The notes: generated by a model not told the origin, from the letters alone. 63,817 nucleotides of DNA, filler included, from Reticulomyxa filosa (GCA_000512085.1; 21 parts of 21 records of this genome joined end to end with filler, not necessarily neighbours in it); one strand, 5' to 3'; shown: positions 12,536-31,885, numbered from the whole stretch's first letter. Made by a program: numbers and translations.

Positions 12536-14196
12536 TTTTATCTTACTGTATTTACAAAATTGAAGGTCAATTTCTTATTTACTTTGTCTAAATTGTAAGT
12601 TTGTAAAAACTACACATAAGAAATTGCTTGGCTAAAAATAATTAAACTAATACTTAAAAGTACTTTTACAAAGTATCATATAAAACTGAAACAGTCAACA
12701 CAACAACAAATAGCAAATATTATAAATAAAAATTAAAAAAATGTATATTTACTAAAAAAATAAAATCTATTCTTTTTTAATATTAATATTACCTTAGTAT
12801 TGCCTTTTTGTGTGTTTGTACATACAATTACTTCATCATCTTTTAGCAAGTTCCTTCAATGCAAGCATTTACTTTGTGAAACAAAGTTTCACATAATAAA
12901 TATAGTATTTTTGTACATAAGATAACATAACGAATATGATAACATATAGATAATTTATTTGTTACGACTAAGCTATTGTAGAAATATGGCGCCGAATGTA
13001 TGATTTCAAATTAAAAAATTAAATAGCATGTTATAAACTAAAATACATTGGAACAAGACATATTGTTCTTCGAAATTTAAGCTTGTAGGAACAGTGAGTA
13101 GACTAAGTGTAATACGAAAGGAAACTTAGTTCCGAAAAGTAATTTCAGGAAAAAGAAAGTAAAATAACGAAAATAATTACAACACAATGAAAGGAAACAA
13201 CTAAAGAACTAGACAAAGTGAGTTGTGTTGTTAAGAAGGTTTAACCCACAGGGGGTCCCACAGTTCCTTTATTTGAACTTGTATAATATGGCTTTACCCT
13301 ACAAGCACAAGGAAAATTCGTATATACAACAAATATCATCATTAAAACTGTACATATTTGAAATCATACTGTTTAGTACATCATACCCAATATTGCGAAT
13401 GAAGCCGTTAATTCAGAGATAACAGCGAAATTCACAGAAAAGTTAAAACAAAAAAAACCCATTGAAATACAAATCCAAAAGAATGCTATTTCAGGATTAA
13501 GAGCTGTTTAAAAAACTTGAAGGACATTCACACAACACAAGAGATTTATTAAACAACAGCAAAAAATAAACGAAAGCTAAGTTACACTAATAAAGTATGC
13601 AAATTAATAAAATCATTAGAGCATTTTTTCGTTCCAATAAGTATTTAACTTTAAAATTATTATTATCATAGAAAAGTAGTAGAATTATTGTGACATTTTT
13701 TCTTGTCCTTTTTTTTCCTGTTTGTGTCACAGGTCTTTTTTTTGCCCACTGTATCAAAACAACACAAGCACACCTACTAGAAGACAAACAAAAAAAAACA
13801 AGGATGGGAGAGTAGTGAAACAGGCAAATATTATCCGAAATAAATTCTTTTTTTTAAAATGTGTAAATCTGTTGTTGGACAATACAAGCTACAATGTTTC
13901 ACCTTGCAATTTCTCTTTGCAGCAATCCATGAAAACGCGAGCCATTCCAAACGCCGCTGTTAACTTGAGTATTGCATTGGCCTCATTTGTTTGTTCGTTG
14001 GTTGCTCAAAATAAGAAACAAACAAACAAGAGCCTTTCAAAAGGGGGGGAGAGGATGACAAAAAAAAAGAGGATTAGAAAAACAAACAAAAAAGTNNNNN
14101 NNNNNNNNNNNNNNNNNNNNNNNNNNNNNNNNNNNNNNNTTAATTAATTAANNNNNNNNNNNNNNNNNNNNNNNNNNNNNNNNNNNNNNNNNNNNG

Positions 14197-16509
14197 GTTC
14201 GGGACCCGAACTGCCTGGCGCTTTACTGCGACCACGACAGCGTGGCGATGCGCGGTTACGAGCAGCCACAGTTCAAGCCGGCGTTCGATCTGGACATGCT
14301 GCTGGCTTACGATTACATCGGTGCCAGCGTGCTGCTGCGTGCCGACGCCGTGCAGCACCTGGGCGGCTTGCAACCGTACGAAGGCTTCGAGGTTTACCAG
14401 CTGCTGCTGAACCTGGCAGCCCATTTCGGCGCGGCGGCCATTGCCAACCTGCCGGAGCTGTTGCTGCACTTGCCTGCCCGTGACGGCAAGCTGGCGATGC
14501 GCAAGCTGGCGGTAGAAGACTGGCTGCAAGCCAGCGCTACGCCGGCCCGTGTCGAGCTGGGCCTGGCCGAGCAGACGCTGCGCGTGGTGTACCCGCTGAC
14601 GGCACAGCCGCTGGTGAGCATCATCATCCCCAGCCGTAACGCTTTCGAATTCATCGAGCCGTGCATCAACACCTTGTTCGAGCGTACCGCCTACCCGCAT
14701 TTCGACGTGGTGGTGGTGGACAACCAGTCGGACGATCCGGATGTGCTGCGCTTTTACGAGCAGGCCATCCAGCGCTTTGGCGAGCGCTTGCGCGTGGTGC
14801 ATTACGACGCCCCGTTCAACTTCTCGTCCCAGATCAATCTGGGTGCGGCCAACGCCCGTGGCGACTACCTGCTGCTGCTGAACAACGATATCGAGATCGT
14901 GCAGCCGGACTGGCTGGAGCGCATGCTGCAGCACGCCGTACGCGACGGTGTCGGCGCGGTAGGCGCCAAGCTGCTGTTCCCGGAAACGGCCAAGGTGCAG
15001 CATGCCGGCATTTTCCTGGGCAGCGGCCCCGACCGTATCGGCAGTGCCTCCCACCTGGGCTGGATGGCCGAGGCCGGAGACGCCGGCTACATGAACCGCT
15101 TGCTGATCGATCAGCGCTTGTCGGCGGTAACGGCGGCCTGCCTGCTGACCCCGGCTGCGGCGTTCCATGCTGTTGGCGGTTTCGACGAGCACGACTTTGC
15201 CGTGCTCTACAACGACGTCGACTATTGCTTGCGACTGCGTGACGCCGGCTGGCACACCCTGTGGACGCCGTATGCCACGCTGGTGCATCACCACAGCATC
15301 AGCATCCGTGCCGAAGGCGAGCAGGTGCTGAAAGCCATGCGCCGGCATGAGCAGAACCAGCAGGAGCAAGGGCGTCTGTTGCAGCGCTGGCTGCCGGCCT
15401 TGGCCAACGATCCGGCCTACAACCCCAATCTGTCGCTGACCGGTAAACCATGCGAGATCGAGCAGAAAGTGCTGCGCTTCTGGCCGCCGGAATTCACCGA
15501 GCTGCCGCGTATCCTGGGTAACGGCATTGCCGGCGGCAGCGGCGAGTATCGCGTCGACCAGCCACTACGCGCGCTCAGCCGTGACGGCAAGGCACTGACC
15601 GCCTGCCTGCGGCAGCAGAAAGATGTCCAGCGCCTGGTAACGGTAGTGGAGCTGCAGCGTCTGGGCGTAGACAGCTATGTGATGCAGAACGCCATGACCG
15701 ACCCGCAGCTGGAATTGCTGCAAGCCTACCGCGAGCATCTGCCGGGTATTTTCATGGTGATGTCGCTGGACGACCTGATTACCCAGCTGCCGGAGAAAAG
15801 TGCGCTGTACAAGCACTTCATGTCCAACTTCCGCGACGGTCGCCGTCGCCTGCGCCAGATGCTGGGCCTGGTAGACCGCCTGGTGGTGACCACCGAGCCG
15901 TTGCGCGAGATGGCGGCCGACATGATTGCCGATATCCGCGTGGTGCCGAACCGCTTGTCGCGCGAGTACTGGGGCAGTGTGCAATCGCAGCGCAACGTTG
16001 GCCGCAAGCCACGTGTGGGCTGGGTGGGCGCGCAGCAACACCAGGGCGATCTGGCGCTGCTGGAAGAGGTGATCAAGGCAACTGCGCACGAGGTGGACTG
16101 GGTGTTCATGGGCATGTGGCCGCAAGGGCTGGACGCGTACATTGCCGAGAAGCACGAGCCGGTGAGCTTTGACCAGTACCCGGCCAAGATGGCGTCGCTG
16201 AATCTGGACATCGCGGTAGCACCGCTGGAAACCCTGCCGTTCAACCAGGCCAAGAGCAATCTGCGGCTGTTGGAGTACGGCGTGATGGGCTGGCCGGTGA
16301 TCTGTTCCGATGTTTACCCTTACCGTACCGGCGAACCGCCTGTGACACGGGTGGGCGACGATGCCAAGGCCTGGATTGCCCAGATCCGCCGTCTGGCGGC
16401 CGACCCGGTGGCAAGAGCGCGAGAGGGAGATCAGTTACGGGCCTGGGTGGACCGTGATTACTGGCTGGAGGATCATCTGGACGAATGGTTGGCCGCGTTT
16501 ACCCGCTAG
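14197..16509 (+). CDS. Bacterial multi-domain glycosyltransferase (GT2 plus a C-terminal GT-B-like domain), 5'-truncated; likely flagellin glycosylation
   Basis: PLVSIIIP..VVVVDNQS..FNFSSQINLG..LLLLNNDIE..NDVDYCL (GT2), and KPRVGWVG..FNQAKSNLRLLEYG. GC-rich codons, no introns, directly upstream of a flagellin start. Confidence 0.9.
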   Translation, partial: VRDPNCLALYCDHDSVAMRGYEQPQFKPAFDLDMLLAYDYIGASVLLRADAVQHLGGLQPYEGFEVYQLLLNLAAHFGAAAIANLPELLLHLPARDGKLAMRKLAVEDWLQASATPARVELGLAEQTLRVVYPLTAQPLVSIIIPSRNAFEFIEPCINTLFERTAYPHFDVVVVDNQSDDPDVLRFYEQAIQRFGERLRVVHYDAPFNFSSQINLGAANARGDYLLLLNNDIEIVQPDWLERMLQHAVRDGVGAVGAKLLFPETAKVQHAGIFLGSGPDRIGSASHLGWMAEAGDAGYMNRLLIDQRLSAVTAACLLTPAAAFHAVGGFDEHDFAVLYNDVDYCLRLRDAGWHTLWTPYATLVHHHSISIRAEGEQVLKAMRRHEQNQQEQGRLLQRWLPALANDPAYNPNLSLTGKPCEIEQKVLRFWPPEFTELPRILGNGIAGGSGEYRVDQPLRALSRDGKALTACLRQQKDVQRLVTVVELQRLGVDSYVMQNAMTDPQLELLQAYREHLPGIFMVMSLDDLITQLPEKSALYKHFMSNFRDGRRRLRQMLGLVDRLVVTTEPLREMAADMIADIRVVPNRLSREYWGSVQSQRNVGRKPRVGWVGAQQHQGDLALLEEVIKATAHEVDWVFMGMWPQGLDAYIAEKHEPVSFDQYPAKMASLNLDIAVAPLETLPFNQAKSNLRLLEYGVMGWPVICSDVYPYRTGEPPVTRVGDDAKAWIAQIRRLAADPVARAREGDQLRAWVDRDYWLEDHLDEWLAAFTR

Positions 16510-16520
16510 GCCAATCGTGC

Positions 16521-16547
16521 AAAAAGGCAGCGTTAGCTGCCTTTTTT
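16521..16547. terminator. Intrinsic (probably bidirectional) terminator
   Basis: aaaaaggcagc-gtta-gctgccttttt perfect stem with A and T tails, 11 nt after the GT stop. Confidence 0.85.
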
Positions 16548-16567
16548 CGTTTCGCCACAAAAAAATT

Positions 16568-16594
16568 TAAAGTTCTGCAGGGGGGCGCCGAAAT
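16568..16594 (+). promoter_or_regulatory. Sigma28 (FliA) promoter
   Basis: TAAA-N15-GCCGAAAT against the consensus TAAA-N15-GCCGATAA, upstream of an RBS (GAGGTG, 16669-16674) and a flagellin-like ATG. Confidence 0.85.
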
Positions 16595-16679
16595 ATGGTC
16601 ATAAGCTAATGCACTGCTAGCAAGAATCAAGCCAGACGGTGCATGGTCAGAAACCAAATAGAATTAATGAGGTGCCAAA

Positions 16680-16703
16680 ATGCCAATCATCGTTAACAGC
16701 AAC
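16680..16703 (+). pseudogene. fliC: Flagellin N-terminus (MPIIVNSN) interrupted by the IS
   Basis: Eight codons matching the flagellin start pattern M-x-x-x-I/V-N-T/S-N, with a sigma28 promoter, RBS and neighbouring glycosyltransferase. The call depends on context. Confidence 0.7.
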
Positions 16704-16766
16704 TGAATCGCCCCCACTTTCCTAGATACCTCGTGAGCCTCACACTAGGCCCTACAAGGAGGTGTC

Positions 16767-17045
16767 ATGAGCAAGCCGCGTTTTCCTGAAGAGTTCAAGA
16801 TTGAAGCTGTCAAGCAGGTAACCGAGCGTGGTTATCCGGTTGCCGAAGTCGCCAGTCGCCTCGGTGTGTCGGCGCACAGCCTGTATCAATGGCTGAAGCG
16901 CTACGACCCCAAGCGTGCCATTCCTGCCGCATCCACCGAACAGCAAGCCGAAATACGGCGTCTCAAGGCTGAGCTGAAGCGGGTGACCGAGGAGCGCGAC
17001 ATCCTAAAAAAGGCCGCCGCATACTTTGCCAAGGAGTCCGGGTAA
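16767..17045 (+). CDS. IS3 transposase OrfA (HTH)
   Basis: RFPEEFKIEAVKQV..VAEVASRLGVS..EIRRLKAELKRVTEERDILKKA; RBS ggagg upstream. Confidence 0.95.
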   Translation: MSKPRFPEEFKIEAVKQVTERGYPVAEVASRLGVSAHSLYQWLKRYDPKRAIPAASTEQQAEIRRLKAELKRVTEERDILKKAAAYFAKESG

Positions 17046-17917
17046 GGTATGCCTTCATCCGGACTCATGAGCAGCAGTTTCCTGTTCGACGTCTGTGTCG
17101 TGCCATGGCTGTGCATCCCAGTGGCTACTACGCCTGGAAAGCCTCTCCGCATTCACCTCGTGCGCGCGAAGACCAGCGCTTACTGGGGCAAATCAAGCAG
17201 GCCTGGCTAGAGAGTGGCGGTGTCTATGGCTACCGCAAGGTCTATGACGACCTGCAGGCACAGGGAGAGCGTTGCGGTAAACATCGCGTGGCACGACTGA
17301 TGAAGCAGGAGGGTCTGCGTTCGCAGACGGGCTACCACCGACGCCCCGGGCATTGCAGTGGCCGCCCGGCGGTAGTAGCACCGAACCATCTGCAACGCCA
17401 GTTCACTGTGGAGGCGCCGAATAAGGTCTGGGTGACGGATATCACGTACATCCGCACGCATGAGGGATGGTTGTACTTGGCGGTGGTCCTCGACCTATTC
17501 TCGCGGCAGGTTATTGGCTGGTCGATGCAGTCACGTATCGATAGAGAGTTGGTTCTGAATGCCCTGTTGATGGCGGTATGGCGCCGCCAGCCCAAGCATG
17601 AGGTGCTAGTACATTCCGACCAGGGAAGTCAGTTCAGTAGCTACGACTGGCAAGACTTCTTGAAGGCCCATCACTTGGTGCCCAGCATGAGTCGACGCGG
17701 GAACTGCCACGACAATGCCGTGGCGGAGAGTTTCTTCCAGTTGCTGAAGCGGGAGCGTATCAAGCGAAAAACCTATCACGACCGGGAAGCGGCACGTCGT
17801 GACATATTCGATTACATCGAGATGTTCTACAACCCGAAGCGCCGGCATGGTTCCACAAATGGGCTGTCACCGGTAGAGTACGAGAAGCAGTATTTCCAAC
17901 AGCTCCGGAGTGTCTAG
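17006..17917 (+). CDS. IS3 transposase OrfB (DDE integrase core), reached by -1 frameshift
   Basis: WVTDITY, HSDQGSQF and DNAVAESFF motifs. The frame is open from the A6G site (KKGRRILCQGVRVRYAFI). Confidence 0.95.
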   Translation, partial: KKGRRILCQGVRVRYAFIRTHEQQFPVRRLCRAMAVHPSGYYAWKASPHSPRAREDQRLLGQIKQAWLESGGVYGYRKVYDDLQAQGERCGKHRVARLMKQEGLRSQTGYHRRPGHCSGRPAVVAPNHLQRQFTVEAPNKVWVTDITYIRTHEGWLYLAVVLDLFSRQVIGWSMQSRIDRELVLNALLMAVWRRQPKHEVLVHSDQGSQFSSYDWQDFLKAHHLVPSMSRRGNCHDNAVAESFFQLLKRERIKRKTYHDREAARRDIFDYIEMFYNPKRRHGSTNGLSPVEYEKQYFQQLRSV

Positions 17918-17935
17918 AGAAGCCGGGGCGATTCA

Positions 17936-18001
17936 ACGGGCGCTTCCGGGACGAATGTCTGAACGAACACTGATTCATCAGTCTGCGCCATGCTCAGATC
18001 G
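17936..18001 (+). mobile_element. Fragment of a second IS3-family (IS407-like) transposase
   Basis: Reads GRFRDECLNEH*FISLRHA, the motif FNGRFRDECLNEHWF with TGG changed to TGA. Confidence 0.8.
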
Positions 18002-26579: not shown

Positions 26580-27489
26580 AACTGATTGGTTGGAATTGGT
26601 GATTTGGAAAAGTATTTTTGTTCCGATTTGCCAGAAAGACCACTCGGATGGCGGGAAGTAACTTCTGCACTACCACCACGTACAATCACCTCAGGTTGTG
26701 CAAGATAGGCGGAAGAAGTAGCAATGATGGCGGCGGCCTTGGCCATCATAGGCACAGACTTGGACTGAATAATGGTACTTTTTTTTCGTTTGGACAATTG
26801 TGTTTGGAACAATTGGAAAACATAGCAAATGGAACAATGAAACTTGTTTTGGATGAATTGCTGTCAAAGTAGGTAATGTCGTCCACTTTTCCTTTGTCGC
26901 ATTGGAAATGACGACATTGCTGAGGATCAAGATTGAGATGCTTGTCATGTCTTAGCAAACCTTTGTGTACATTCTGCTTATTGCCAGCACTGGTGTCATC
27001 ACCAACATTGATATGCTCTTCCTCTTCTATCAATTCCACTCCAACGTACTGGTTACATGGGTATGGAAGTTGGTCCACTTTTTTTGGTCGATGAAAATAT
27101 CCAACGTATTTTATTCTTCCATATCTCTTCATCAACGGAAGATAGAGGACATCGCGAATACTCAGACACACTGGAAATGTCGAAGATTGCACTACGTTTT
27201 CAATATCATTTTTTCTTGCTAATACGCCATGCTTTGTCTTCGTCACAAAATACGTATGCTTTTCAAAAGTTCCGTTGTGCTCACCACATGGATGTTGCAA
27301 ACTTATCCCATACCAATCACCTTCTGTTCCATGCAATGGCCCAATATATGCGATTTCACCCAATAAATTGTTACTACTTAAGCGGACTGTGTCACCATAA
27401 CACAATTTATCCACACACAACTTTGAGTTCGCAATACTCTGGCTAAGAGTGTTTGCTTTGTCAAATCGAGTCTCGCAACGTTGAGCCAT
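26580..27489 (-). CDS. Protein with two CAP-Gly domains
   Basis: GEIAYIGPLHGTEGDWYGISL..GEHNGTFEKHTYF..HGVL, and a second degenerate copy GRIKYVG..YVGVEL..GKVDDITYF. Confidence 0.85.
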
Positions 27490-27836
27490 GATTATCCAAG
27501 GTCAAAGTATACCTTTTATTGGCTAGACGGAGCGGAAAATTAGAAAAGGTGTAACGTGGCTTAAAACGACTGACACTAACAGAAACCTGATTATTTCCTT
27601 GACCCATTGGCAGAATTGATACTAGATCAAACAACAGTGCACAGGAATTGGCAATTTACTCAAAGTTTCATTTGAATGAAAAGAAAATATGGCAATAATT
27701 TTTTTTTTTTTGAAGCCAACAAAACACGCCATTTTTTGTGCTTATCTTTTTTTTATTTCAATTTTTCAAAAAAGAAAAAAGATTAGGTTTTTGTTTCCCC
27801 TCATGGCAATCAGAGACAGTTGAGCCAAACTTATTG

Positions 27837-30290
27837 TCAAAGCGATTGCCATTCGATAGTCTCATCCAATCTTTTCTTTTGTAACAGTTTTAAAACGGAA
27901 GCAGGTCTTTCCAAGCGCTGAGCCATTTCAAGTGGAGTTTCATGGATCTGCAGGAAAAGTAAAACAAAAAGCAAATAAACAAAAGACGTCATTTGACTTT
28001 TTTTAAAAAAACGTACCAATGTTTCATCGACTTCTTCTAATAACGAATTCCAAATTTCTGGGGGAATATACCGACGCAAGCACTCCAATCTCTTTTCTTC
28101 TCCACGAATATCACTCGATACACATACATGCAGAACATTTCCACCACTCAATACGCTGTAGCCCTGAGAATTACCATATTCCAACAATCACAAAGCCATT
28201 ATGAATTTGTATTGTGTTGTTGTGTTTGTACAAAGACAAGCAATACAGCATACAGTTGTTTTGTGTCGCCAGTATGAGGCGTCGCCATTTTTGCATTTGT
28301 CAGGAACAAGCAATGACATAAGTTCGTCGTCCAAGTTACTTCGGAATCGCAGCACTTTCATAAGCACGGTATAACCATACTTTTGAGGGAGAGGGAAAAC
28401 AATTATCACGTGTAAAGTCAAGCACATAGCGATACAATAGAATATATAGCAATTTATCATACCTTATCTATTTTTGCAATGCACTTTTGCCATGATTCTT
28501 CTGGCATAAATCGACGCAGTATATGCAAGCGTGATTTGACATGTTCATCATTGCTCATGATGCTATGGTGAACTAAAGTGCCGGAGTCCTTGTTGGAGCG
28601 TGCATTTTTTTTTATGACAACAACACGTACATGATACCGTACGTCTTATACAAACATATATACAACAAACAAGTACAGAATATTGACGACACACACACAC
28701 GGGAAAAAAAAATAGCAAACATGGTTGAAATTAGTAGTTGATTCCCAAAAAGTGAAATTGGTTCGAAAATCAATAGGGATGATATACTGCATCAACTCCT
28801 CACCGACTTCATCTTGAACGAAAAAGGCAAAATGAATTGGAGTAAAGTTTTGCTGATATTATTTATTTATTTATTATTTTTTTTTTGAGGAGGAGAACAA
28901 ATGGGTTGCAATTATTTGAGTCAATTTTTCAAAAGGATATGACAAACAAAAATTACCCATCTCTCAGGTGATAAAATCAGTTCTTGCCATCTTTCTTCGG
29001 ATATGTGTTTCTTGGCAAGTTCTAAGATATCCTTAGTGGGGACATGTTCATTTCGAACAGCGTAAATCAATGCATGATAACCAAACTGCAATTGTGTGAA
29101 AATATGCAATTGTTGTTATCTCCAATTAAAATTATTTTTTCTCCCTCTTTATTCTGGATACTCCAGTCCCAAAAAAAGATTGTTTGTGTGAAATTAAACA
29201 CAATAAAACTTGAGTTGTTTGGGACCACAGCGAGCTATCCAAATTGGCAGGAATGAATAATCGAATGCATTCCATAGTCGATTGCTTCCACAGAGCATAC
29301 ATGAGTGGTAAGGTATTTTCGCGATCCGAATCGCACAGCTGAGATTCCACCAATTCAGGCGGAAGCAATTCCATAATTTCTTTGGCGCATTGATATTTGA
29401 CGTTGCCATTGTAAGCCATTTGACACAAATAGTTTTTATTGTCGCTATCTTTTTGTTCTCGAATGTACGAAGAGCGGGCAAATTCAAGAGGGAAATGGAT
29501 AATTAAAGGGGCAAGCAATTGATGTGCAAATCCGGCCAATTTCAAATCAAAGTCAAAGGAATTGATTTGCATTTGTCGATGGCATTCCGTCAGGAACGAC
29601 TTTTGAGCGATTAAATTGAGCAACTTCTCTTGTTTTTTGTTGCTCTTCACAATCGCTTTCCATAAAAATTGCACTTGACATATCATTGATTTTTTGCTGG
29701 GCACTGTCGTGTTGTTTCCATTTTCATTTGGCTCCTTGTCATCATCAATGCTATAGATTAGATCAAACTTGATTGCACTGTATGTGTCCGGGATTGCCAA
29801 TCGCATTTTTTTGCTGCAGCCAAAAAGTTGGCCCTCTTTGCCAAATCCACGACGTCCGGATGGGATGTTAAACCCATTTTTGATGCGAGCAATTTTTGTA
29901 AATTTTTCTTTATTATTGTTGACAAACTCTTCAAATTGCAACAATCCATCGCTCAGATCGGATAATGTTTCAAACGTTGCGCCTGCACCATTTTATTTTT
30001 TTTTATTTTTTATTTTTTTTTTTTTTGTCCTCCTGTCCCTTTGATGTTCCCCTCCTTTTTTTAAAGAAAAAAAATGTAACTACAACGAATCAAATCAGTA
30101 GATTGCGCAGATTTAGGAAATTTTTCATTTTGAAACTCCGAAAGCAAGGTAACGCGACAGCTGTCCACACTTTTGACCGGCGCTTCTGTGAATTTGCATC
30201 CTTTCAATCCCCAAAAAAATTTGGCAATATCTCTGGAAGAATACAATGTGAATACCTTGACATAAATTTATTTGTTTTTTGGAACGAGGA
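27837..30290 (-). CDS. RelA/SpoT-like nucleotidyltransferase domain plus ankyrin-like repeats, multi-exon, 5'-truncated
   Basis: APVKSVDSC..DLIR..IARIKNGF..YSAIKF..MICQVQF, followed by repeats LPLMYA, HALIYA, TPIHFA, TVLMKV, NVLHVC and TPLEMA in separate exons. Confidence 0.6.
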
Positions 30291-30365: not shown

Positions 30366-30465
30366 NNNNNNNNNNNNNNNNNNNNNNNNNNNNNNNNNNN
30401 NNNNNNNNNTTAATTAATTAANNNNNNNNNNNNNNNNNNNNNNNNNNNNNNNNNNNNNNNNNNNN

Positions 30466-30517
<52 letters not shown>

Positions 30518-30519
30518 TA

Positions 30520-31098
30520 AAGGACGAGTGGTAATAAGAGACGTATTTCGAAATGACAAAGAGCAAATTCACAGTTTTGACGAAGAGAAAACGATATTGA
30601 CAGTGTGTTTGACAAAAGGGTTTGGTGAAAAGGGCGTGTATGGGTTTGTGTGCGGGGGTGCGAATGGCAATGTGATGGAACGAAAACGCAGCAGCTTTGC
30701 AATGACGACCAGCGCATTGGACAGAGGACACGGAGCGATCTCTTGCATCCGACGACAAAATGAAGTGTTCGCTTGGGTGAATAACCTCGGTGTCCAACTG
30801 TATGACATTGCCACACATCAATGGATTGGAACAGTGCCGCCACTGTCCAAAATTCAGAGCAGATGTCCCTTCCATTTGTGTTGGAAAGATCCCGTCACAC
30901 TTTTCATTGCGTCGTACGATTGGATTAAAGTGGTTAAGATCGATTACTCCTCCTCTGCTGCTGCTACTGCTACTCGACTTGCTCGTCCGTTTAAAAGAAA
31001 TGTCCATCTGCTTAGCGTGTTTGTCACCAATTCTCTTCTTTGCGGCGTGGCACCGTTTCAAGAAAACATTATCCTTTTGGGATATCCTAAAGGAGGAA

Positions 31099-31131
<33 letters not shown>

Positions 31132-31885
31132 TTAATGGTGATGATAATAATGAATATGAGTATGATAATGGCAATGGCAATAGCAATGGCAATGATGAAA
31201 ATAGGAAAAGAAAACAAATAGTACCACAATTGGGGATTGTAACGTATCAAGGCAAATGGGTTTCAACACTTGCCTTGTCTACAGCCAACGATGAACGCAA
31301 TATTGATTCAATATATGATTACCATTTGATATGGTGTCCCCCATCTTCCTCCTCCTCCTCCTCCTCTTCCTCCTCCTCATCATCATCACCATTATCATCA
31401 TCATCACCATTATCATTATCCTCTTCTTGCTCTTGCTCTTGCTCTTGCTCTTGCTCAGTGAAGAGTGAGATCGATAGCAACAGCGTGGACGAAAAGAAAG
31501 AGGAGAAAAAGAAAGAGCCAGAGTCAGAGTCAGAGTCAGAAAAAGAAGAAAAAGAGTACTTTTACATTGCATCAAACAAGACGATGTGTGTAGCGTATCC
31601 ACAGACGTTGGAAGACCATTTGCTCTGGCTCTGGGATCAGAGACAGTACGACAAGGCATGGAGATTGGTGTTGGAGAACAAATGGCGCAAGCAAATTGAT
31701 TTCATCGCTTTTGGAGAAAAGTATTTACAGACTATCCTCGGCATTCTACGCAAATACCAACAGCACCCCTTTCTTATTGTACATGACAATGATGATGATG
31801 ATGATGATGATGATGACGACGACGATGATGATGATAATAACAATGATAATAATAATAATAATAATAACAATAATAATAATAATAA
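30520..31885 (+). CDS. VPS41: Vps41 (HOPS subunit) homolog, internal fragment
   Basis: FVCGG..FAWVNNLGVQLYD..LCWKD..DWIKVVKI..LCGVAPF..DYHL..FYIAS..EDHLLWL..YDKAW matches the Vps41 beta-propeller and the start of its solenoid. Confidence 0.8.

What the first reader, a model, noticed from the sequence alone, without database searches (positions are those of the whole stretch)
29640..30290. RelA/SpoT-like nucleotidyltransferase domain fused to ankyrin-like repeats in a eukaryote
Seen: ordered motifs PVK-S..C, DLIR, RIKNGF, YSAIK and CQVQF in an intron-containing gene. Established: alarmone synthetases use R-x-K..S..K, D..G.R, GY.S.H and E-x-Q motifs. Inference: a member of a poorly characterised eukaryotic RelA/SpoT-like family. 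The E-to-Q change and loss of the second Lys suggest an inactive or nucleotide-sensing variant. A repeat sensor joined to a nucleotide-messenger domain is a typical immune or stress-signalling design.
Basis: partly seen in the sequence, partly recalled or inferred. Interest (0 to 1): 0.72.

Follow-up and report, generated by a model that had tools for sequence, protein, structure and literature searches.

The report
Degenerate alarmone-synthetase-like ankyrin gene of foraminifer
A spliced, 5'-truncated gene of the foraminifer Reticulomyxa filosa encodes a domain predicted to fold like bacterial alarmone (ppGpp) synthetases joined to ankyrin-type repeats, but this copy lacks the glutamate such enzymes need, so it is likely a non-catalytic member of a large, unnamed protist family.

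Summary
All five motifs lie on the minus strand inside 29640-30290, in a GT-AG spliced gene. The gene is NCBI 'hypothetical protein RFI_26463, partial' of Reticulomyxa filosa.

The reading holds at fold level only.
- The C-terminal part matches ankyrin repeats.
- Sequence methods fail. Pfam RelA_SpoT found none of 13 family members, and hhalign gave a probability under 1%. So it is not a demonstrable Pfam member.

The gene belongs to a paralog expansion: 27 hits among 1.84 billion representatives, and 9 of 10 looked up are R. filosa.
- In the E-x-Q motif, 15 of 17 members keep Glu. This copy has Gln.
- This copy alone (1 of 15) has Thr for a conserved Lys.

The gene is nonetheless intact: 564 codons across 8 exons. 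Compared with a 90-95% identical spliced transcript, 35 of 40 listed differences are synonymous. It is therefore a selected, probably non-catalytic paralog and not a pseudogene.

Its 5' end lies off the contig. The immune or stress role is untested. This scan has noted the same kind of family on other DNA four times.

The parts
30081..30232 (-). First exon present on the contig (5'-partial gene). It encodes strand 1, helix 2 and the start of strand 2 of the nucleotidyltransferase-like domain: K28 (30174-30172), S32, T36 (30150-30148, where 14 of 15 paralogs have Lys), D54 (30096-30094) and R57.
   Evidence: covered by X1 contig record 3
30233..30255 (-). A 23-nt GT..AG stretch. It is kept in the X1 contig and in the NCBI model (which starts V-F-T-L-Y). 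It must be removed to join the upstream exon seen in X1 (ending R-A-H-D-M-N-V-S-F-H) in frame with R-D-I-A-K-F-F. It is either an alternative upstream acceptor or a retained micro-intron; this is unresolved.
   Evidence: loose end at 30257; family register R-A-H-x-M-N-x-x-F-Q plus 15 residues to K-F; inference
29983..30080 (-). Intron 1, 98 nt, GT..AG.
   Evidence: X1 record 3 runs from 30080 straight to 29981
29210..29982 (-). Large exon. It holds the rest of the nucleotidyltransferase-like domain: R-I-K-N-G-F at 29887-29870, Y-S-A-I-K at 29782-29768, Q161 at 29677-29675 where 15 of 17 paralogs have Glu, and Q163 at 29671-29669. A helical linker and the first ankyrin-like repeat follow.
28957..29085 (-). 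Exon encoding ankyrin-like repeat 2 (43 codons).
28721..28852 (-). Exon encoding ankyrin-like repeat 3 (44 codons).
28463..28588 (-). Exon encoding ankyrin-like repeat 4 (42 codons).
28254..28379 (-). Exon encoding ankyrin-like repeat 5 (42 codons).
28017..28163 (-). Exon encoding ankyrin-like repeat 6 (49 codons).
27837..27947 (-). Last exon: a terminal half-repeat and the TGA stop at 27839-27837.

Best explanation
This is a spliced, 5'-truncated Reticulomyxa filosa gene whose product is predicted to fold as a RelA/SpoT-type (small-alarmone-synthetase-like) nucleotidyltransferase domain followed by about seven ankyrin-type repeats. Because its predicted catalytic glutamate is glutamine, it likely no longer transfers pyrophosphate and would act as a nucleotide-binding or scaffolding paralog.

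Shown here:
- the gene structure: 8 exons, 7 GT-AG introns and an open frame of 564 codons
- its identity with RFI_26463
- the paralog family
- the fold matches
- the residue differences from paralogs
- the excess of synonymous differences against a related transcript

Inferred:
- D54 and position 161 correspond to the two catalytic carboxylates of Rel enzymes
- paralogs that keep K, D and E-x-Q are active pyrophosphokinases using ATP
- this copy binds but does not turn over a nucleotide, or only uses its ankyrin repeats to bind partners
For: Identity and structure of the gene:
- P0003 matches the large exon at 100% identity and is named RFI_26463, partial, R. filosa.
- All seven introns are GT..AG, and the joined frame is open for 564 codons up to a TGA.
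- X1 contigs lack all seven introns. Five are listed as joints. Two more follow from contiguous record coordinates.

Fold, window protein model (mean pLDDT 74.7):
- Foldseek finds SAS1, SAS2 and CapRel, together with DARPins.

Fold, paralog P0018 model (mean pLDDT 82.8):
- Among 48,161 chains the top 8 rows are all RSH synthetase domains: 8vx3 12.5, 6fgk 11.7, 8acu 11.3, 6ewz 11.1, 5dec 11.0, CapRel 10.9, SpoT 10.3 and Tas1 9.9. The first other nucleotidyltransferase is TdT at 9.2 with 102 residues aligned.
- In Foldseek all 26 rows printed are RSH enzymes, with the best E-value 6e-5.
- The ESM Atlas finds RelA_SpoT clusters at TM 0.57-0.59.

Loss of catalytic-type residues in this copy:
- Glu is kept in 15 of 17 members that show the E-x-Q-like motif. 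The window protein and P0010 have Gln.
- The Lys at motif position 10 is kept in 14 of 15. Only the window protein has Thr.
- In RelSeq, D264G and E323Q abolish detectable synthetase activity. I read this as one passage of PMC13299517 citing Hogg et al..

Selection:
- 35 of the 40 listed differences to the X1 contigs are synonymous, and 33 of 40 fall at third codon positions. The table printed 40 of 82 differences.
- The window row has a long branch in the family tree, 1.54 against a median of 0.76.
Against: - No sequence-level link to RelA_SpoT exists. Pfam found 0 of 13 members and 0 of the window's exons. A profile of the family found nothing in PDB sequences. hhalign against RelA alone and against an 83-sequence RelA/SpoT profile gave probabilities of 0.07% and 0.23%; both profiles were shallow.
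- The models rest on a 22-sequence alignment.
- The whole family lacks the first Arg of R-x-K, has R where D-x-x-G-x-R has G, and carries a roughly 30-residue insert after N-G-F. Its chemistry may therefore differ, and the Glu may not play the RelSeq role.
- No residue-by-residue superposition was available.
- I could not see whether the X1 homologue shares Gln161.
- The syn/nonsyn count uses only the 40 best-supported of 82 differences.
Confidence: 0.55

Rival explanations
1. The protein is still an active pyrophosphokinase or other nucleotidyltransferase. The family's active site differs from classical RSH enzymes, and Gln161 together with other residues (K28, S32, R34, D54, R57, K93) is enough, perhaps for a different donor or acceptor such as a tRNA 3' end or an adenine nucleotide.
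For: The family as a whole departs from the canonical motifs: Pro for the first Arg, a D-x-x-R register and a large insert after N-G-F. Strong purifying selection acts on the domain exon. Fold matches include enzymes with other acceptors, namely CapRel and Tas1. K28, D54, R57, R91, K93 and Q163 are retained.
Against: Glu is kept in 15 of 17 members and Lys in 14 of 15, which marks these residues as functionally constrained. The same E-to-Q change abolishes RelSeq synthetase activity (passage read). The window row is the second-longest branch of the tree.
Confidence: 0.2
2. The domain has a generic pol-beta-type nucleotidyltransferase fold that does not descend from RelA/SpoT enzymes, or the RSH likeness is a modelling artefact. 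Its function would then be unrelated to alarmone-type chemistry.
Against: Two AlphaFold models and two ESMFold-based Atlas look-ups all rank RSH synthetases first. Those matches cover 131-176 aligned residues, against about 100 for other nucleotidyltransferases. The order K..(S/R)..K, D..R, N-G-F, E-x-Q on strand 1, helix, strand 2, strand 3 and strand 5 follows the RSH layout.
Confidence: 0.12
3. The gene is a decaying pseudogene or an annotation and assembly fragment of an active paralog.
For: The gene is 5'-truncated on a 6.8-kb contig. The X1 contig keeps a 23-nt stretch that breaks the frame with the upstream exon. Catalytic-type residues are lost. The NCBI model reads into introns.
Against: The frame is open for 564 codons across 8 exons with 7 canonical introns. 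A spliced homologous transcript exists. Listed differences are 35 synonymous to 5 non-synonymous.
Confidence: 0.07

Closest known systems
Small alarmone synthetases (SAS1/RelQ, SAS2/RelP, exported SAS of Streptomyces; PDB 5ded, 5dec, 6fgk, 6ewz, 8vx3) and the SYNTH domain of long Rel/RelA/SpoT enzymes
   Different: There is no detectable sequence similarity. The host is a eukaryote, and the domain sits within a multi-exon, ankyrin-flanked protein. The first Arg of R-x-K is absent from the whole family. F replaces the stacking Y. A roughly 30-residue insert follows the N-G-F loop. This copy has Gln for the catalytic Glu and Thr for a conserved Lys.
Divergent eukaryotic SAS ('divRel') of fungi, Dictyostelium and diatoms (Atkinson et al. 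2011, PMC3153485, passages read)
   Same: These are synthetase-only RSH relatives in eukaryotes without a plastid role, and their product is unknown.
   Different: They are found by SYNTH-domain HMMs, whereas this family is not found by Pfam. The paper does not contain the word ankyrin (0 occurrences) and predates the R. filosa genome.
Fungal NLR-like proteins with an N-terminal RelA_SpoT domain (Dyrka et al. 2014, PMC4986451, passages read)
   Same: An RSH-type domain is joined to superstructure-forming repeats in a eukaryote. RELA_SPOT-NACHT-WD40 rows appear in Gaeumannomyces.
   Different: Those proteins have a NACHT NTPase between the effector and the repeats, and Pfam recognises their RelA_SpoT domain. 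Here no NACHT or NB-ARC domain is seen, and the repeats are ankyrin-type on one or both sides.
toxSAS / CapRel tRNA pyrophosphokinases and the Tas1 (p)ppApp synthetase
   Different: They are bacterial or phage-defence toxins with antitoxin or immunity partners. No such partner or context exists here, and the catalytic Glu is missing in this copy.
Ankyrin-flanked RelA/SpoT-fold genes noted earlier in this scan on other DNA (e1-9718601, e1-9729247, e1-7369220, e1-7352097)
   Same: They show the same kind of architecture, and two of them have the same foraminiferal setting.
   Different: They lie on different loci, and no look-alike of this protein was indexed. This copy stands out by its E-to-Q and K-to-T changes under purifying selection.

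Membership tests
RelA_SpoT (Pfam PF04607) / RSH SYNTH domain | Match to the family HMM at or above its gathering score | tested here: not met
   No PF04607 row at E<=1 for the window's exons or for any of 13 family members. As a control, E. coli RelA and SpoT score 148 bits.
RelA_SpoT (Pfam PF04607) / RSH SYNTH domain | Profile-profile similarity to RSH synthetase domains | tested here: inconclusive
   hhalign gave probability 0.07% against RelA alone and 0.23% against an 83-sequence RelA/SpoT profile. Both profiles were shallow (Neff 2.1-3.2) and the RSH set was nearly all gammaproteobacterial.
RelA_SpoT (Pfam PF04607) / RSH SYNTH domain | RSH-type synthetase fold: pol-beta-like core with a long N-terminal helix and a C-terminal helix | tested here: met
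   Predicted models only. See (window protein; paralog, with RSH enzymes filling the top 8 of 48,161 chains; Atlas).
RelA_SpoT (Pfam PF04607) / RSH SYNTH domain | Catalytic Glu of the E-x-Q motif (E323 of RelSeq) | tested here: not met
   The window protein has Q161 (codon 29677-29675). 15 of 17 paralogs with the motif have Glu. The equivalence to E323 is inferred from its position on strand 5.
RelA_SpoT (Pfam PF04607) / RSH SYNTH domain | Catalytic Asp at the start of strand 2 (D264 of RelSeq) | tested here: inconclusive
   D54 precedes predicted strand 56-62 and is present in 15 of 15 members. The register D-x-x-R differs from D-x-x-G-x-R, and no superposition was printed.
RelA_SpoT (Pfam PF04607) / RSH SYNTH domain | R-x-K-x-x-x-S-x-x-x-K ATP-binding motif | tested here: not met
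   The window protein reads P-V-K-S-V-D-S-C-R-V-T. The K and S are kept, the first R is P (as in most paralogs), and the last K is T in this copy only (1 of 15).
RelA_SpoT (Pfam PF04607) / RSH SYNTH domain | Pyrophosphate transfer from ATP to a 3'-OH | not testable with these tools
   This needs an enzyme assay.
Ankyrin repeats (Pfam clan Ank) | Match to an Ank HMM above the gathering score | tested here: not met
   The window protein scores Ank_2 22.8 bits against a cut-off of 27.3. Single repeat exons give no hit. Paralogs pass: P0020 with Ank_2 35.6, Ank_4 27.3 and Ank_3 24.9 bits, and P0006 with Ank_2 34 bits in its N-terminal part.
Ankyrin repeats (Pfam clan Ank) | Stacked helix-turn-helix repeat fold of about 33-45 residues | tested here: met

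The most novel reading that the evidence does not exclude
Foraminifera run a cytosolic nucleotide-messenger system that is independent of plastids. It is built from an expanded family of ankyrin-flanked RelA/SpoT-fold enzymes. Catalytically dead copies such as this one are kept by selection as sensors or gatekeepers of the product made by their active paralogs. This would be a eukaryotic alarmone-type pathway with its own pseudoenzyme regulators.
Probability: 0.15. Interest if true: 0.8.

Novelty: new variant of a known kind. Interest (0 to 1): 0.48.

Why it matters
RelA/SpoT-type synthetases are the hub of bacterial and chloroplast stress signalling and of some anti-phage toxins. In non-plastid eukaryotes only scattered, untested 'divRel' genes and fungal NLR fusions are in print.

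A foraminiferal family beyond the reach of Pfam would extend this enzyme fold into a new cellular setting. Most of its members keep the carboxylate and basic motifs, and they are flanked by ankyrin repeats.

This particular copy gives a natural E-to-Q and K-to-T variant that has been maintained by selection. That makes it a ready-made control for testing whether the family is enzymatic, and whether pseudoenzyme paralogs have a regulatory role.

On its own, this gene is one further, partial member of a family the scan has already met.

Tried and rejected
- Whole-genome search of the window's own assembly: no genome is held. Paralog counts therefore come from protein databases only.
- Rfam over the window: 0 matches.
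- Pfam on exons and on 13 family members: no RelA_SpoT hit.
- Family profile against PDB sequences: only a chance neuraminidase hit at E 2.7.
- hhalign against RelA, and against a RelA/SpoT profile built hits plus SpoT: not significant. The one search set turned out to be mostly fragments 58-100% identical to RelA, which is too narrow for a good profile.
- The control genomes gave no loci beyond E. coli RelA and SpoT.
- Word-indexed homology searches with the protein and with the family alignment returned only R. filosa proteins: 3 and 5 hits. This is no proof that the family is absent elsewhere. Atlas rows point to look-alike clusters in ciliates and diatoms and to an Ank-bearing cluster, which I could not retrieve or align.
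- Sequencing runs: no RNA holder is listed. The single run X1 is only guessed to be RNA.
- Earlier-findings look-up by sequence: nothing.
- A 23-nt micro-intron as a settled fact: rejected for lack of evidence, because the only transcript contig retains it.
- Two independent E-to-Q losses (window protein and P0010): the tree separates them, but only at 88/90 support, so I treat this as a hint.
- Literature: searches (0 papers; the term may not match 'RelA/SpoT'; 13; 26, mostly the common word 'spot'; 1; 28) listed no paper on a foraminiferal or ankyrin-flanked RSH-fold family. I judged them from titles and abstract starts only. The R. filosa genome paper was not read.

Full report
**What the window is.** The 63,817-base window is not one stretch of chromosome. 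It holds 40 runs of 44 N in 20 pairs, each pair around the six-frame stop linker TTAATTAATTAA. So it is a chain of 21 separate contigs. The finding lies on the contig at 23584-30365 (6,782 bases). A search of 1.84 billion representative proteins with the large exon returned a 446-residue protein that is 100% identical over all 257 residues (P0003). A second database names this protein 'hypothetical protein RFI_26463, partial [Reticulomyxa filosa]', on a contig of 6,782 bases. The organism is therefore a freshwater foraminifer (Rhizaria). No whole genome is held for it here.

**The observation.** All five motifs are on the minus strand, in the stated order and inside the stated coordinates. In P0003 numbering they are:
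- P-V-K28-S..S32-C at 30180-30157
- D54-L-I-R57 at 30096-30085
- R91-I-K-N-G-F96 at 29887-29870
- Y126-S-A-I-K130 at 29782-29768
- C-Q161-V-Q163-F at 29680-29666

They fall in columns that are invariant (R91, K93, N94, Q163) or at least 90% conserved (G95, F96, K130, E161) among ten aligned paralogs. They are family signatures, not chance words.

**Gene structure.**
- A 98-nt GT..AG intron (30080-29983) joins ...D-L-I-R-C to S-A-T-F-E. This reproduces the register of the paralogs.
- Contigs of one public run (X1, labelled only as a guess at RNA, 90-95% identical to the window) lie on the gene without its introns. Five joints are listed, with skips of 69, 90, 83, 132 and 124 nt, all CT..AC on the plus strand. 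Two more (104 and 98 nt) follow from contiguous record coordinates. The tool had dropped those two rows because low-complexity repeats lie inside them.
- With two boundaries moved by one base, as the tool itself allowed, all seven introns are GT..AG. The joined frame is open for 564 codons up to a TGA at 27839-27837.
- The NCBI model reads into introns after residue 316, so its C-terminal third is partly wrong.
- From the second ankyrin-like repeat onward, each exon encodes exactly one repeat of 42-49 residues.

**The 5' end.** The X1 contig continues for 538 bases upstream of 30257 with sequence unlike the window. The 30 letters next to the joint encode ...R-A-H-D-M-N-V-S-F-H, which matches the family's R-A-H-x-M-N-x-x-F-Q helix. 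The gene is therefore truncated by the contig end. It lacks at least the first helix of the domain and whatever lies before it. Longer paralogs have an N-terminal ankyrin part and a helical region there.

One point is unresolved. To join that upstream exon in frame, and in the family register, the 23-nt GT..AG stretch at 30255-30233 must be absent. The X1 contig and the NCBI model both keep it. It may be an alternative acceptor or a retained micro-intron.

**What the N-terminal domain is.** Sequence methods say nothing.
- Pfam gives no RelA_SpoT row for the window's exons or for any of 13 family members.
- A family profile finds nothing in PDB sequences.
- hhalign against RelA, or against an 83-sequence RelA/SpoT profile, is insignificant. 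Both profiles were shallow.

Structure prediction is consistent and specific.
- The AlphaFold model of the window protein (22-sequence alignment, mean pLDDT 74.7) has the order helix, strand, helix, strand, helix, strand, strand, strand, long helix.
- Foldseek returns small alarmone synthetases, CapRel and, for the other half, DARPins.
- Foldseek on that model prints 26 rows, all RSH enzymes, with the best E-value 6e-5.
- The ESM Atlas uses its own ESMFold models. It also lists RelA_SpoT clusters at TM 0.57-0.59 for the window protein and for P0005. It further lists unnamed eukaryotic clusters, one of them bearing ankyrin repeats.

I conclude that the fold is of the RelA/SpoT synthetase type. 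Descent from that family is likely but not shown by sequence.

**The repeats.**
- Pfam Ank_2 scores 22.8 bits on the window protein, under the 27.3-bit cut-off.
- The homologous repeat region of paralog P0020 passes three Ank models.
- 'Ankyrin-type, divergent' is a fair description.

**The family and what is special about this copy.** The exhaustive phmmer search found 27 proteins at E<=0.001. Of 10 looked up, 9 are R. filosa proteins and one comes from an unnamed ENA record. Five of the 27 (P0022, P0025-P0028) are ankyrin-only or spurious hits, and I left them out of the alignments.

Motif conservation across the family:
- Among 17 members that show the E-x-Q-like motif, 15 have Glu and two have Gln (the window protein and P0010).
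- Among 15 that cover the first motif, 14 have Lys at the position of the second Lys of R-x-K-x-x-x-S-x-x-x-K. The window protein alone has Thr.
- D54 is kept in 15 of 15, and the following Arg in 14 of 15.

In RelSeq the D264G and E323Q mutants have no detectable synthetase activity. I read this as one passage of PMC13299517 citing Hogg et al.. That D54 and position 161 are the equivalents of D264 and E323 is my inference. It rests on their places at the head of strand 2 and in the middle of strand 5. No residue-level superposition was available.

The closest paralog, P0004 (40% identity), keeps all these residues. In a maximum-likelihood tree the window row has a long branch (1.54 against a median of 0.76). 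It is also not next to the other Gln-bearing row, but support for that split is weak (88/90).

**Is it a dead gene?** No, by the evidence at hand. Of the 40 differences to the X1 contigs that the tool printed (of 82 in all), 35 are synonymous and 33 sit at third codon positions. In the domain-plus-linker exon alone, 27 of 28 are synonymous. Whether X1 is an ortholog from a related strain or a recent paralog, both copies have been kept under purifying selection. I could not see whether the X1 copy shares Gln161.

**Most likely mechanism.** The E-bearing paralogs are predicted to be ATP-dependent pyrophosphokinases of unknown acceptor. This copy keeps the fold, the nucleotide-facing K28, D54, R57, K93 and N-G-F, and a long ankyrin array. 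It lacks the general-base and metal-binding Glu and one phosphate-binding Lys. I therefore read it as a non-catalytic paralog that would bind a nucleotide or partner proteins and modulate, or report on, the active members (confidence 0.55).

Rivals:
- a still-active enzyme with altered chemistry (0.20)
- a nucleotidyltransferase fold unrelated to RSH function (0.12)
- a decaying fragment (0.07)

The contig neighbours are a CAP-Gly protein and low-complexity proteins, which give no hint.

**Comparison with what is known.**
- Atkinson et al. 2011 (PMC3153485, passages read) list divergent synthetase-only RSHs in Aspergillus, Gibberella, Dictyostelium and two diatoms. They were found by HMMs. The text has no occurrence of 'ankyrin'.
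- Dyrka et al. 2014 (PMC4986451, passages read) list fungal RELA_SPOT-NACHT-WD40 proteins.
- My five literature searches, judged from listings only, showed no paper on a foraminiferal or ankyrin-flanked RSH-fold family.
- This scan has noted such genes on other DNA four times, twice in foraminifer-like genomes (e1-9718601, e1-9729247, e1-7369220, e1-7352097). Those are unchecked AI notes. They agree with my reading but are not independent evidence.

**Verdict.** The gene is a new, partial and probably non-catalytic member of an unnamed foraminiferal family. That family is itself a divergent variant of a known enzyme kind. Interest is moderate.

Noticed in passing
whole window, e.g. 30366-30465: The window is a chain of 21 separate contigs joined by N44-TTAATTAATTAA-N44 spacers (20 spacers). 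Gene neighbourhood across a spacer therefore means nothing.
   Followed up: yes
14196-18001: This contig has 58-59% G+C against 25-40% elsewhere. It carries an uninterrupted 755-codon family-2 glycosyltransferase frame (14242-16509) and an IS3-type transposase with HTH_21 and rve domains (17105-17917). It looks bacterial: a contaminant, a symbiont or a recent transfer in the assembly.
   Followed up: partly
28017-29085 and 27837-27947: From the second ankyrin-like repeat onward, each repeat of 42-49 residues is one exon with phase-0 boundaries. This layout would allow repeats to be gained or lost by exon duplication.
   Followed up: partly
30233-30257: Two AG acceptors lie 23 nt apart. The only transcript contig uses the upstream one, which breaks the frame with the upstream exon. 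This could be alternative splicing or a retained micro-intron.
   Followed up: partly
26746-27501 (minus strand): The next gene downstream on the same contig encodes a CAP-Gly domain protein (Pfam 76.6 bits).
   Followed up: partly
30519-31883 (plus strand, next contig): This is a fragment of a Vps41-type beta-propeller gene (Pfam 85.8 bits). It is interrupted by long runs of Asp, Asn, Ser and Glu codons.
   Followed up: no
protein P0006 (paralog, not in the window): NCBI names this paralog 'Ras guanine nucleotide exchange factor, partial'. Pfam finds only ankyrin repeats in it, and the rest is the family described here. The name is probably a transfer error.
   Followed up: partly
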